Source: a plasmid. Taken from it: a stretch of DNA of 1,549 nucleotides. Each line of letters starts with the position of its first letter. Position 1 is the first letter of the stretch. Position numbers and translations under genes: made by a program. The stretch is taken from assembly GCF_988243305.1 (NCBI RefSeq), contig NZ_OZ547142.1; one strand, given 5' to 3'. This document shows positions 1 through 1,549 of this stretch, in pieces. Under the pieces are notes generated by a model that saw only the letters and a program-made list of their open reading frames with translations, was not told the origin of the DNA and searched no databases.

Positions 1-196
1 CACTGGTCAACAAAGACGGTGATATTCAGCGCCGAATCATGGCCATGTTTTCAAATTGAGCTAGCGGCAGGCGGACAATCAGGGGCTACGTGTTAACGTT
101 CTGACCATGATTGTCTATCCTGCATTGCTCTTTTGCCGCCTCAAAATCCTTTGCGTGTTTTTGCTCCCCGTTCTCCAGAAAAAACCGAGCCGCCAC

Positions 197-250
197 GGTT
201 CCGGCAGCGCCTTGAGCGCTACCGGAAACCGTCTGGGGAGAACCCCAGAC
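197..250 (+). other. Two adjacent GC-rich hairpins in the non-coding region
   Basis: Hairpin A: TTCCGGCAGCGC (199-210) pairs with GCGCTACCGGAA (216-227), 11/12 with a C205/A221 mismatch, loop 211-215. Hairpin B: GTCTGGGG (231-238) pairs perfectly with CCCCAGAC (243-250), loop AGAA. Confidence 0.5.
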
Positions 251-326
251 CCCCATCGCTGCAACACCGACGGTCTACGACCACCTACCAACCGCATGGC
301 TGCCTGTTCCGTGCAAATGGGCTTTG

Positions 327-350
327 CAGGGGGCTGGCGCGGTTCCTGGC
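327..350 (+). other. Candidate ColE1-type origin motif (G-run plus GGTTCCTGGC), i.e. possible RNA primer to DNA transition region
   Basis: CAGGGGGCTGGCGCGGTTCCTGGC shares CAGGGGG and the 10-mer GGTTCCTGGC with the pMB1 ori region (...GTCAGGGGGGCGGAGCC...ACGGTTCCTGGCC...) in the same orientation as the two stronger matches downstream. Spacing differs from pBR322, so this is tentative. Confidence 0.25.
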
Positions 351-524
351 GACCTGAAAGCCCCTGGTTAGGGGTATCGGCGCGCTTGACCTCCTGAGAG
401 CCTCTGTAAGCGTTTTTCGCGCCTTCCATGCCCTGGCGGGCATCTAAAACCCGTTTCGTGCGTCTGAGAGCTTTTGAGCGCGTTTGAGGGGCTATCTGGC
501 GACTCATCCCCAAAAGAACAACAC

Positions 525-558
525 CGGGATCACAGACAACATGCGAGAGGTGATCCCG
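525..558. other. Hairpin (9-bp stem, 16-nt loop) abutting the conserved backbone segment
   Basis: CGGGATCAC (525-533) pairs perfectly with GTGATCCCG (550-558). Confidence 0.5.
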
Positions 559-626
559 CTCGCCGCAAGTCGATGACCGAGCGTAGCGAGCGAATCGACG
601 AGGAAGCGGAAGAGAACCGGAAGCCA
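551..626 (+). other. Conserved ColE1-family origin-distal backbone segment (region where pMB1-type plasmids carry primosome assembly sites)
   Basis: TGATCCCGCTCGCCGCAAGTCGATGACCGAGCGTAGCGAGCGAATCGACGAGGAAGCGGAAGAGAACC aligns by eye at about 75% identity to the reverse complement of the pUC/pBR322 stretch ...CTTCCGCTTCCTCGCTCACTGACTCGCTGCGCTCGGTCGTTCGGCTGCGGCGAGCGGTATCAG... That orientation is RNAII-sense. Confidence 0.55.
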
Positions 627-680
627 CATTGAGCACTTACGCACTGATGCGGGGTGTCGGGGTGAAGCCCTGACCAAGTG

Positions 681-904: not shown

Positions 905-933
905 AAGGGCGTTGCGTGCAACGCAACGCCCTT
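905..933. other. Perfect hairpin / 29-bp near-palindrome (13-bp stem, 3-nt loop) at the module junction
   Basis: AAGGGCGTTGCGT (905-917) pairs base-for-base with ACGCAACGCCCTT (921-933), loop GCA 918-920. No U-tract follows on either strand (GCCTAGAATAG on +; TGGGGGTG on -), so it is not a canonical intrinsic terminator. Confidence 0.6.
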
Positions 934-935
934 GC

Positions 936-997
936 CTAGAATAGATCTTTTACGCCGATTTGTAAGTGGTTGTTTTTTTAGTGTGTTTTTTATTTAC
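936..997. other. AT-rich tract with T-runs between the GC-rich backbone and the operator sites
   Basis: Sequence GATCTTTTACGCCGATTTGTAAGTGGTTGTTTTTTTAGTGTGTTTTTTATTTACC has T7 and T6 runs. Composition changes abruptly here relative to upstream. Confidence 0.5.
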
Positions 998-998
998 C

Positions 999-1046
999 TG
1001 TCGCATCCTGGATGACACAACGTTGTCGCATCCAGGATGCGACAAC
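999..1046. promoter_or_regulatory. Two tandem palindromic operator-like sites (25-bp period) immediately upstream of the -35 region
   Basis: Copy 1 (999-1021, TGTCGCATCCTGGATGACACAAC) and copy 2 (1024-1046, TGTCGCATCCAGGATGCGACAAC) match at 20/23 positions. Copy 2 lies in a perfect 25-bp palindrome (1022-1046, 12+1+12, centre A1034). Copy 1 is an imperfect palindrome around T1009. Core of each is CATCC-N-GGATG. Confidence 0.55.
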
Positions 1047-1048
1047 AC

Positions 1049-1063
1049 GCAACAAGGTGTTGC
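1049..1063. other. Short hairpin (6-bp stem, 3-nt loop) overlapping the putative -35 hexamer
   Basis: GCAACA (1049-1054) / AGG loop / TGTTGC (1058-1063), perfectly complementary arms. Confidence 0.4.
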
Positions 1064-1089
1064 ACAGATGTGTCATGATGGCTTAGATT
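1060..1089 (+). promoter_or_regulatory. Putative sigma70-type promoter for the rep-like ORF
   Basis: TTGCAC at 1060-1065 (5/6 to TTGACA), 18-bp spacer, TAGATT at 1084-1089 (4/6 to TATAAT). Position is appropriate, about 45 bp upstream of the ATG. Hexamer assignment is by eye only. Confidence 0.3.
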
Positions 1090-1117
1090 TGAACCAACGT
1101 TAGTGCATGGGATTTTC

Positions 1118-1131: not shown

Positions 1132-1549
1132 ATGTTTATTGATTCAGAAAAACGACTGAAACAACTTTCAGATGAGGCAAAGAAAAACACCGAGGATCTC
1201 GAAGAAGCAAAGAAAAATTCAAGGTTTACACAGGTATCCCCAAAAGGTTGGGAACGTGTTCGAGAGCTGCTGAAGGATAGCCAAGGCATATCAGCACTGA
1301 AGCTGTACTCATTTTTAGCGGAGCATATCGATCCTACGTGTGGCGCTGTCGTTGCGGATCAGCAATTCCTAGCTGAAAAACTTGGAGTTAGCAGAAGCAC
1401 AATTATTCGGTGGCTCAATTACTTAGAATCAAAAAATGCATTAGTTAGAATCCCCGTTGCTGGTAAGGTTTGTGCGTATGCCCTCGATCCACATGAAGTC
1501 TGGAAGGGATACAACACTACGAAAAACCATGCAGCGTTTGTCACTAAAA
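1132..1549 (+). CDS. Partial ORF (3' end beyond window) encoding a winged-helix DNA-binding protein with RepL-like replication-initiator architecture
   Basis: ATG at 1132 is the first start after an in-frame TGA at 1090-1092 and is preceded by AGAGGGA at 1118-1124. 139 codons read without a stop to the window end, which is presumably why it is absent from the ORF track. Translation begins MFIDSEKRLKQLSDEAKKNTEDLEEAKKNSRFTQ (charged, K/E-rich) and continues ...ISALKLYSFLAEHIDPTCGAVVADQQFLAEKLGVSRSTIIRWLNYLESKNALVRIPVAGKVCAYALDPHEVWKGY. The helix-turn-helix followed by G-x-hydrophobic-x-A-L-(N/D)-P-x-E pattern matches my recollection of staphylococcal pSN2-type RepL (Pfam RepL family). Family assignment is from memory, not a search. 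Confidence 0.6.
   Translation, partial: MFIDSEKRLKQLSDEAKKNTEDLEEAKKNSRFTQVSPKGWERVRELLKDSQGISALKLYSFLAEHIDPTCGAVVADQQFLAEKLGVSRSTIIRWLNYLESKNALVRIPVAGKVCAYALDPHEVWKGYNTTKNHAAFVTK

What the first reader, a model, noticed from the sequence alone, without database searches (positions are those of the whole stretch)
999..1063. Tandem palindromic operators plus a -35-overlapping hairpin upstream of the rep-like gene
Two 23-bp sites at 25-bp spacing, each with a CATCC-N-GGATG dyad, and copy 2 inside a perfect 25-bp palindrome. Iterons are usually asymmetric direct repeats, so this looks like binding sites for a dimeric HTH protein. The obvious candidate is the wHTH protein encoded immediately downstream (autoregulation or an origin-binding site), but an unseen repressor would fit equally well.
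Basis: seen in the sequence. Interest (0 to 1): 0.55.

Follow-up and report, generated by a model that had tools for sequence, protein, structure and literature searches.

The report
RepA binding sites of plasmid pKL1
The two tandem palindromes are real and very probably bind the plasmid's own replication protein RepA, but the window is the long-studied 1,549-bp E. coli plasmid pKL1, so this is a known origin/operator and not a discovery.

Summary
Sites 999-1021 and 1024-1046 are a 20/23 direct repeat at 25-bp spacing, and 1022-1046 is a perfect 12+1+12 palindrome. Neither occurs in any of 1000 dinucleotide shuffles.

The window is not an anonymous locus. It is a complete circular plasmid, 99.2% identical to pKL1 (NC_002145.1, replicon type Col(MG828)), and it encodes the identical 158-aa RepA, whose gene runs across the record ends. 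Papers held here report that pKL1's oriV lies upstream of rep and contains an IHF box, several Rep binding sites and a perfect 16-bp inverted repeat, which matches 999-1014/1029-1044. They also report copy-number control by Rep autoregulation alone.

My comparison of 13 Rep lineages (92-42% identity) shows the same layout in most of them: hairpin, IHF-like box, AT-rich tract, two tandem dyads at 24-26 bp, promoter, rep. The dyad arms differ between lineages and follow RepA's predicted recognition helix, not overall relatedness. This excludes a host repressor.

RepA models as a single winged helix resembling dimeric ArsR/MarR/TubR proteins. It has no Rep_3 or HUH nuclease domain.

Novelty: already known. 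Still open: theta versus rolling-circle replication, and the role of a conserved AACGTT between the dyads.

The parts
905..933 (.). Strong hairpin (13-bp perfect stem, 3-nt loop) at the upstream edge of the origin region. It could be an ssi/sso-like or terminator-like element.
   Evidence: It is the longest perfect palindrome in the plasmid, at -17.2 kcal/mol with z = -6.4. Relatives L004, L005, L008 and L012 keep an 11-12 bp hairpin at the same place with a different sequence.
940..998 (.). AT-rich tract directly upstream of dyad 1 and a candidate unwinding region. It contains the IHF-like box.
   Evidence: GC is 28% in 940-999, against 55-67% in the flanking windows.
963..975 (-). IHF-like box (WATCAANNNNTTR with 1 mismatch; TAAGTGGTTGTTT on the + strand).
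   Evidence: Alone it is not significant (1 match, 1.2 expected). The same motif lies on the same strand 25-40 bp upstream of dyad 1 in 11 of 13 lineages, often as a perfect TAAGTTATTGATT. An IHF box is reported in the pKL1 oriV.
999..1021 (.). Dyad unit 1. The left half-site TGTCGCATCC is perfect and the right half-site is degenerate (GGATGACACA). The centre base is 1009.
   Evidence: (D1). The right arm is the variable part in nature: 1012 is A or G, and 1015-1016 is AC, AA or CG.
1019..1024 (.). AACGTT junction between the two dyads, at the centre of the 46-bp large palindrome.
   Evidence: I2. It is conserved at this junction in 5 lineages with 4 different arm sequences. The window has 3 copies against 0.56 expected.
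1022..1046 (.). Dyad unit 2, a perfect 25-bp palindrome. Core TGTCGCATCC-A-GGATGCGACA is at 1024-1044 and the centre base is 1034.
   Evidence: I18. It is invariant except for the centre base in 45 natural variants.
1047..1076 (.). Degenerate half-site-like sequences that run into the promoter. They include IR GCAACA-AGG-TGTTGC (1049-1063) and TGTGTCAT (1069-1076).
   Evidence: Of 14 plasmid-wide matches to TGTCGCAT with up to 2 mismatches, 8 lie in 999-1076. In relatives the promoter spacer carries the lineage's own arm sequence, such as GAGCTA in L005/L006 and GTCCTA in L007.
1061..1089 (+). Putative repA promoter: -35 TGCACA at 1061-1066, 17-nt spacer, -10 TAGATT at 1084-1089.
   Evidence: It is the only candidate with at least 8/12 matches between the dyads and the start codon. 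Similar pairs lie at similar distances in L005, L006, L007, L012 and L014. This is inference, not mapping; the default scan found none.
1090..1108 (.). A 19-nt copy (74%) of the inter-dyad junction, with a second AACGTT at 1096-1101, lying between the -10 and the ribosome-binding site.
   Evidence: (D4).
1132..1549 (+). repA, first 139 codons. The gene continues across the ends of the circular record.
   Evidence: The protein is identical to WP_000469298.1 of pKL1.
1..59 (+). repA, last 19 codons plus the TGA stop at 57-59.
   Evidence: tblastn on the doubled window gives 158/158 residues at 1132-1605.

Best explanation
Region 999-1046 is the high-affinity binding region for RepA, the only protein of plasmid pKL1, which is both initiator and autorepressor. 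The region lies inside the combined replication origin and repA control region.

Four 10-bp half-sites (TGTCGCATCC) alternate in orientation and form two dyads 25 bp apart. Each dyad fits one dimer of a single-domain winged-helix protein. Upstream lie an IHF-like box and a 28%-GC tract. Downstream, weaker half-site-like sequences run through the -35 and spacer of the repA promoter.

The likely working is as follows. At low concentration RepA fills the two strong dyads and, together with IHF bending, opens or marks the adjacent AT-rich DNA for initiation. At higher concentration RepA oligomerises (hexamers are reported) and spreads onto the weak promoter sites. This shuts off its own transcription and sets copy number without iterons or antisense RNA.

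Shown here: the sites exist, are far beyond chance, are conserved in position, and change sequence together with the Rep recognition helix. Taken from the literature: RepA binds sites in the oriV, autoregulates and hexamerises. Inferred: which site serves initiation and which serves repression, the stoichiometry, and the promoter position.
For: Identity with pKL1 is 99.2% over 1549 bp, with the same RepA accession.

Literature: the oriV upstream of rep has an IHF box, several Rep binding sites and a perfect 16-bp IR. That IR matches 999-1014/1029-1044 exactly. A review describes a Rep-only autoregulatory copy control.

Statistics: 0 of 1000 shuffles for the palindrome and for the repeat. Half-site matches cluster in 999-1076.

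Family: tandem dyads with a 24-26 bp period lie 90-170 bp upstream of rep in pKL1, L004-L008, L012 and L013, and by eye in L009-L011.

Specificity covariation: L005 and L006 share helix SRSTIKRWLNY and arm TAGCTCAC although they are only 69% identical elsewhere. pKL1 is 79% identical to L005 but has a different helix residue (I92) and a different arm. L009 and L011 are 87% identical but differ in both helix and arm. L010 and L013 share R-N in the helix and arm GGAAAC.

Protein: a single wHTH core at residues 37-117 behind a long N-terminal helix. The top PDB folds are TubR, CodY, ArsR/SmtB and MarR. Pfam gives HTH_36.

An IHF-like box is conserved in position in 11 of 13 lineages, next to an AT-rich tract.
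Against: I could not read the primary footprinting papers (Burian et al. 1997, 1999, 2003). That the published RepA sites coincide with 999-1046 therefore rests on one citing paper and on my own match of its '16-bp IR'.

The strong dyads end 15 bp upstream of the putative -35, so repression by direct occlusion needs the weaker sites or oligomerisation. The promoter is only a consensus guess.

pKL1 and L005 differ by a single helix residue yet have very different arms, so the helix cannot be the only specificity determinant.

The structure model has moderate confidence (pLDDT 70) and comes from a 13-sequence alignment.
Confidence: 0.85

Rival explanations
1. The dyads are only an operator. RepA dimers bind them to repress repA transcription, and the site where replication starts is elsewhere on the plasmid.
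For: Palindromic sites bound by dimeric wHTH proteins are typical of repressors (fold matches). The sites lie next to the only promoter candidate. In the related pIGMS31 system, Rep binds the promoter-proximal inverted repeats most strongly.
Against: The citing literature places the Rep binding sites within the oriV. The dyads lie upstream of the -35 and do not cover it. They adjoin an IHF-like box and an AT-rich tract that are conserved in position. In 1240-1335-bp relatives there is little other conserved non-coding architecture.
Confidence: 0.2
2. The 46-bp palindrome is a double-strand origin of a rolling-circle or hybrid replicon. It extrudes as a hairpin or cruciform, and RepA, a distant RepL/pHW126-type protein, nicks or melts it at the AACGTT apex.
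For: As a single strand the region folds into one long hairpin with ACGT at its tip (-20.4 kcal/mol, z = -6.8). AACGTT is kept at this junction in 5 lineages with different arms. The Pfam link to RepL is weak. pHW126 and pIGMS31 Reps, also wHTH proteins without HUH motifs, show relaxase activity and mixed RC/theta intermediates.
Against: No HUH, Rep_1, Rep_2 or Rep_trans domain was found. AACGTT is absent from 5 lineages. In L005-L008 the units are true direct repeats whose internal asymmetry breaks the long hairpin. The two dyad centre bases, which would pair in the long hairpin, are not held complementary in nature: A/A is about as common as A/T. pIGMS31 Rep also nicked pUC18 non-specifically.
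Confidence: 0.1
3. The dyads bind a host-encoded or otherwise unseen regulator, not RepA.
Against: E. coli plasmids of this family carry at least four different arm sequences: TGTCGCATCC, TAGCTCAC, TGACAC and GGAAAC. The arms follow the plasmid's own Rep helix. The smallest relatives encode essentially only Rep. The literature reports RepA binding in this region.
Confidence: 0.03

Closest known systems
pKL1 of E. coli KL4 (NC_002145.1; Burian et al. 1997 Plasmid, 1999 J Mol Biol 294:49, 2003 Biochemistry 42:10282)
   Same: It is the same plasmid: 1549 bp, 12 differences, identical RepA. The reported oriV upstream of rep has an IHF box, several Rep binding sites and a perfect 16-bp IR, and control is by Rep autoregulation only.
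   Different: Three of the 12 differences lie in the dyads. Relative to pKL1, 1009 changes A to T, 1016 changes A to C, and 1034 changes T to A. The two strong left half-sites and all of dyad 2 apart from its centre base are unchanged.
pHW126-like replicons (pHW126, pIGRK, pIGMS31)
   Same: These are small gammaproteobacterial plasmids with a wHTH Rep lacking HUH motifs that is both initiator and autorepressor. The order of elements is the same: palindrome (ssi), short conserved region, repeated Rep sites that act as incompatibility determinants, inverted repeats at the promoter, then rep. They are distantly linked to RepL.
   Different: They have four 20-bp direct repeats at 22-bp spacing, not two 25-bp palindromic units. 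Their Reps are longer and their G+C very low. I could not test direct sequence homology of the Reps because the records are not in the searchable collections.
Iteron-type theta replicons (pSC101, R6K gamma ori, pPS10, F)
   Same: The Rep is both initiator and autorepressor. An IHF site and an AT-rich tract lie beside the Rep sites. Inverted, partial Rep sites at the rep promoter serve repression (established knowledge; R6K parallel drawn).
   Different: The Rep has a single winged helix, not the two-domain Rep_3 fold. There are only two units, and each is a dyad. No DnaA box was found. A review classes pKL1 as lacking iterons.
RepL / pSN2-family plasmids of Firmicutes (PF05732)
   Same: There is weak profile similarity over the wHTH core (E = 0.004 for pKL1 RepA; 4 of 13 relatives at or below 1e-3). 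Relatives at 42-45% identity are annotated RepL by NCBI.
   Different: The match is below a confident threshold, the hosts differ, and the replication mode of the pSN2 family is itself unresolved.

Membership tests
pKL1 / Col(MG828) replicon | Near-identical nucleotide sequence and size | tested here: met
   1549 bp in both, with 12 differences after rotation. PLSDB types the matching records as Col(MG828).
pKL1 / Col(MG828) replicon | The same RepA protein | tested here: met
   158/158 residues are identical, and pKL1, pO26-S1 and L003 all carry accession WP_000469298.1.
pKL1 / Col(MG828) replicon | An oriV upstream of rep with an IHF box and a perfect 16-bp inverted repeat, as described in the literature | tested here: met
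   999-1014 and 1029-1044 are perfectly complementary 16-mers in both the window and pKL1. The IHF-like box is at 963-975 with 1 mismatch.
pKL1 / Col(MG828) replicon | RepA physically binds these sites | not testable with these tools
   This rests on the literature and on covariation. The primary papers are not held.
Iteron-type theta replicon (Rep_3 initiators) | Initiator with the Rep_3 / two winged-helix-domain fold | tested here: not met
   No Rep_3 hit in any of the 13 family members. The model has one wHTH core. The best PDB folds are single-domain dimeric repressors.
Iteron-type theta replicon (Rep_3 initiators) | Three or more asymmetric direct repeats of 17-22 bp | tested here: not met
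   There are two units of 25 bp, each a dyad.
Iteron-type theta replicon (Rep_3 initiators) | A DnaA box beside the repeats | tested here: not met
   TTWTNCACA with up to 1 mismatch gives 2 hits against 3.1 expected, and neither is upstream of the dyads.
pHW126-like replicons | Four 20-bp direct repeats at 22-bp spacing in the minimal origin | tested here: not met
   The layout is two palindromic 25-bp units.
pHW126-like replicons | Rep homologous to the pHW126, pIGRK and pIGMS31 Reps | not tested
   Records AY543071, AY543072 and FN429030 are not in the collections. The only link is the weak RepL similarity that both groups share.
RepL family (PF05732) | A significant match to the RepL profile | tested here: inconclusive
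   The i-Evalue is 0.0043 at 17 bits for pKL1 RepA. Four of 13 relatives score at or below 1e-3 and 7 of 13 at or below 0.1. No NCBIfam model matched.
HUH / Rep_trans rolling-circle initiators | A nuclease domain with HUH and catalytic Tyr motifs, or a Rep_trans domain | tested here: not met
   There are no Rep_1, Rep_2 or Rep_trans hits. The pBuzz-type Rep is unrelated, with BLASTP E = 4.5.

The most novel reading that the evidence does not exclude
The tandem dyads are more than protein landing pads. They would form a palindromic origin that extrudes, with the conserved AACGTT at its apex as the point where a nuclease-motif-free winged-helix initiator of the RepL / pHW126 / pKL1 supergroup nicks or melts DNA. 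This would give these 1.2-3 kb plasmids a hybrid replication mode that is neither classical theta nor classical rolling circle.
Probability: 0.08. Interest if true: 0.55.

Novelty: already known. Interest (0 to 1): 0.15.

Why it matters
The finding has little standalone weight, because it rediscovers the RepA-binding origin/operator of pKL1, which was dissected experimentally between 1997 and 2003.

The family-wide comparison may still be useful. At least eight arm specificities pair with distinct Rep recognition helices on otherwise similar 1.2-3 kb plasmids. This could explain how several Col(MG828)-typed plasmids coexist in one cell, and it shows that this replicon type lumps together separate specificity groups. 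It also offers a compact natural set of orthogonal initiator/origin pairs.

The replication mode of this wHTH-initiator supergroup, theta or rolling circle, remains unsettled.

Tried and rejected
1. pBuzz lead. The two inverted oriT-like arms made me suspect a pBuzz-type rolling-circle plasmid. The pBuzz-like pSZECL_a encodes an unrelated 329-aa Rep of replicon type ColpVC, so I rejected this.

2. Compensatory flip of the dyad centres. The window has T/A at 1009/1034 and pKL1 has A/T, which keeps the 16-nt arms complementary. A metagenome scan returned 40 loci. Among them A/A is about as common as A/T, so the two centres are not constrained to pair. Rejected.

3. Recurrent flipping of the palindrome centre. 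Sites 1012 and 1034 have the most four-gamete conflicts (6 of 18), but other sites have 4-5. Inconclusive.

4. Known RNA elements. Rfam shows nothing relevant.

5. A DnaA box. None found.

6. Standard promoter and terminator scan of 850-1200. No hits. The promoter I give comes from a laxer scan.

7. Sequence search of the PDB with the family profile. Only noise, with E above 0.4.

8. Primary pKL1 papers and the pBuzz paper. Not held.

9. pIGRK, pIGMS31 and pHW126 records. Not in the collections, so I could not test direct homology to that family.

10. Two literature searches were swamped by irrelevant hits, including the yeast kinesin Pkl1.

Full report
**What the window is.** The 1549 bases are a complete circular plasmid, not a fragment. 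Megablast against plasmid records returns 332 records that cover at least 80% of the window, many of exactly 1549 bp and 99.5-99.7% identical, typed Col(MG828) and 'mobilizable'. After rotation (window position 1 = pKL1 position 1331) the window differs from E. coli plasmid pKL1, NC_002145.1, at 12 positions.

The ORF that starts at 1132 does not end at the window edge. It continues across the circle to a TGA at 57-59 and encodes 158 aa. This protein is identical to pKL1 RepA, WP_000469298.1.

**The observation.**
- 999-1021 and 1024-1046 are a 20/23 direct repeat at 25-bp spacing.
- 1022-1046 is a perfect 12+1+12 palindrome.
- Both units contain CATCC-W-GGATG.
- Because a direct repeat of palindromes is itself palindromic, 999-1044 is also one large near-palindrome centred on AACGTT at 1019-1024.

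The simplest description is four 10-bp half-sites TGTCGCATCC in alternating orientation. Three are perfect and one (1010-1019) has 2 mismatches. In 1000 dinucleotide-preserving shuffles of the plasmid, none reached a 12-bp perfect stem and none reached a 20/23 tandem match.

The '-35-overlapping hairpin' (GCAACA-AGG-TGTTGC, 1049-1063) exists but is marginal, at -5.0 kcal/mol with 11 of 200 shuffles as good. Its arms look like degenerate copies of the half-site core: TGTTGC against TGTCGC. Of the 14 plasmid-wide matches to TGTCGCAT with up to 2 mismatches, 8 lie in 999-1076.

**What the literature says.** The primary pKL1 papers are not in the held library, but citing papers are informative.
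[quoted passage not shown] The only such repeat is 999-1014/1029-1044, which is the outer part of the finding.
- A 2025 review cites the 1999 pKL1 paper for a 'Rep-only' copy-control mechanism. In it, small plasmids without iterons or antisense RNA rely on Rep autoregulation, and excess Rep binds origin elements non-productively.
- The title of the 2003 paper, as cited, reports hexamerisation of RepA.

From my own memory, unverified, the 1999 paper also distinguished RepA binding domains in this region.

**Independent evidence from relatives.** tblastn with RepA finds 587 plasmid records with a graded series of homologues. A protein-database search finds 692 clusters, essentially all on contigs of 1-4 kb. 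I fetched 13 lineages from 92% down to 42% Rep identity, from Escherichia, Salmonella, Klebsiella, Citrobacter, Serratia, Providencia and Shigella, and extracted the 330 bp upstream of each rep gene.

The architecture recurs: a hairpin, an IHF-like box, an AT-rich tract, two tandem dyad units, a promoter-like pair, then rep. An automatic search finds tandem units with a period of 25-26 bp, each containing a dyad, 90-170 bp upstream of rep in pKL1, L004-L008, L012 and L013. L009-L011 show the same layout by eye with a 24-26 bp period, and L014/L015 have a related nested palindrome.

The arm sequence differs by lineage:

| Lineage | Arm |
|---|---|
| pKL1, L004 | TGTCGCATCC |
| L005, L006 | TAGCTCAC |
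| L007 | GGACAC |
| L008 | TGACAC |
| L009 | GAGACA |
| L010, L013 | GGAAAC |
| L011 | GGAAGC |
| L012 | GTAAAC |

**Covariation with the protein.** In the Rep alignment the predicted recognition helix (residues 87-97, SRSTIIRWLNY) holds the most variable positions of an otherwise well-conserved core. Arm identity follows this helix and not overall relatedness.
- L005 and L006 are only 69% identical outside the helix, yet they share the helix and the arm.
- pKL1 is 79% identical to L005 but differs at I92 (K in L005) and has a different arm.
- L009 and L011 are 87% identical but differ in both helix (6 of 11 residues shared) and arm.
- L010 and L013 are 64% identical but share R-N in the helix and arm GGAAAC.

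This is the pattern expected when a protein and its own binding site evolve together. A host repressor cannot explain it, because several of these specificities occur in E. coli itself. One wildlife E. coli isolate carries two Col(MG828) replicons at once, which fits distinct specificity groups being compatible.

**The protein.** Pfam gives HTH_36 (3.5e-8) and a string of weak wHTH families, including RepL at 0.004. No Rep_3, Rep_1, Rep_2 or Rep_trans domain appears in any of the 13 members. The AlphaFold model (pLDDT 70, from 13 sequences) has a long N-terminal helix (3-31), a winged-helix core (37-117, recognition helix 88-100, two-strand wing) and a poorly defined C-terminus. Foldseek against the PDB returns TubR, the CodY DNA-binding domain, ArsR/SmtB and MarR proteins, with E about 5e-3 and probabilities of 0.99-1.00 for most of the top-ranked hits. 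All are dimeric proteins that read palindromes, which suits one dimer per dyad.

**Surroundings.**
- The IHF consensus matches once in the window (963-975, 1 mismatch). This is unremarkable alone, but the same motif lies on the same strand upstream of dyad 1 in 11 of 13 lineages, often as a perfect TAAGTTATTGATT.
- 940-999 is 28% G+C.
- No DnaA box is present and there is no Rfam match.
- The only promoter candidate between the dyads and the start codon is TGCACA (1061-1066), 17 nt, TAGATT (1084-1089). Comparable pairs lie at similar distances in relatives, but the standard scan finds none.

The strong dyads therefore end 15 bp upstream of the -35, and only the degenerate sites overlap the promoter. 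This geometry fits a two-stage model. The strong sites fill first and serve the origin. The weak promoter sites fill when RepA oligomerises and serve repression. That assignment is inference.

**Hairpin or protein site?** As single-stranded DNA either strand folds into one long hairpin, with 999-1014 pairing with 1029-1044 and ACGT at the tip (-20.4 kcal/mol, z = -6.8). The window and pKL1 differ at both dyad centres (T/A against A/T), which keeps that stem perfect, so I tested whether the two centres are held complementary. A metagenome scan with those positions left free returned 40 loci. About 18 of them are A/A and about 22 are A/T. There is no such constraint, and the centres are simply A or T, never G or C.

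In L005-L008 the internal asymmetry of the units is kept in direct orientation, which also argues against a conserved long hairpin. What remains unexplained is that AACGTT lies exactly at the inter-dyad junction in five lineages with four different arms. A second, junction-like copy sits between the -10 and the ribosome-binding site (D4).

**Comparison with known systems.** The element is the pKL1 origin/operator itself. Among systems studied by experiment, the nearest in design are the pHW126-like plasmids. They have a wHTH Rep without HUH motifs that both initiates and autorepresses, and an origin ordered as ssi palindrome, conserved region, four iteron-like repeats, promoter inverted repeats, rep. 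Their replication mode is disputed between rolling circle and theta.

pKL1 differs in having two palindromic 25-bp units where they have four 20-bp direct repeats. I could not test direct Rep homology. Classical iteron replicons share the logic (initiator that is also autorepressor, IHF site, AT-rich tract) but fail on the Rep fold, on repeat number and asymmetry, and on the DnaA box. The RepL link is weak.

**Verdict.** The added value here is the family-wide demonstration that dyad arms and the Rep recognition helix change together. Interest is low (0.15). The most novel reading still open is a palindromic origin nicked or melted at AACGTT by a nuclease-motif-free wHTH initiator, and I rate it at about 8%.

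Noticed in passing
window 651-679 and 874-902: A 29-nt inverted repeat (93% complementary) lies 194 nt apart. Each arm resembles the ColE1/pBR322 bom (oriT) region; that resemblance is my own recognition and was not tested with a tool. MOB-suite types the plasmid as mobilizable although it has no relaxase gene. Two inversely oriented oriT copies is the layout reported for pBuzz, whose Rep is nevertheless unrelated.
   Followed up: partly
window 905-933: This is the strongest hairpin of the plasmid (13-bp perfect stem, -17.2 kcal/mol, z = -6.4). Relatives L004, L005, L008 and L012 keep an 11-12 bp hairpin at the same place with a different sequence, followed by a TAGAnAAGA-like motif. It could be an ssi/sso-like or terminator-like part of the origin region.
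   Followed up: partly
window 1019-1024 and 1096-1101; L004, L008, L009, L012 upstream regions: AACGTT lies exactly between the two dyads in five lineages whose arms differ. A 19-nt junction-like copy with a second AACGTT lies between the -10 and the ribosome-binding site. The window has 3 copies against 0.56 expected. The function is unknown.
   Followed up: partly
window 1009 and 1034 (dyad centres); L018-L057: The centre base of each dyad is polymorphic A/T in natural variants and never G/C. Position 1034 is A in about 18 and T in about 22 of 40 metagenome loci. All four combinations with the 1012 A/G polymorphism occur. This could be neutral variation, recombination, or recurrent flipping of the palindrome centre. 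The four-gamete test was inconclusive.
   Followed up: yes
L016 2486-2866 (pVR50A, 70.5 kb IncF plasmid); hits H76-H78 and H86-H89: Truncated copies of a pKL1-family rep (residues 44-157, 74% identity) sit in large IncF plasmids near strAB and IS26. Shorter fragments occur in Vibrio, Proteus and Arsenophonus megaplasmids. They look like remnants of cointegration of tiny plasmids into large ones.
   Followed up: no
window 107-397 (+) and 504-629 (-): Some GenBank records annotate a 96-aa 'hypothetical protein' and a 41-aa 'replication protein' at these positions, while most records annotate only RepA. Both lie in the ColE1-like part of the plasmid and are probably not genes. I did not examine them.
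   Followed up: no
L018, L022, L055 (metagenome contigs): Several metagenome contigs contain the dyad region three times, at spacings of about 1550 bp (L018, L055) or 5609 bp (L022). These are plasmid multimers or assembly read-through of circles, and the 5.6-kb period suggests a larger plasmid with the same replicon.
   Followed up: no
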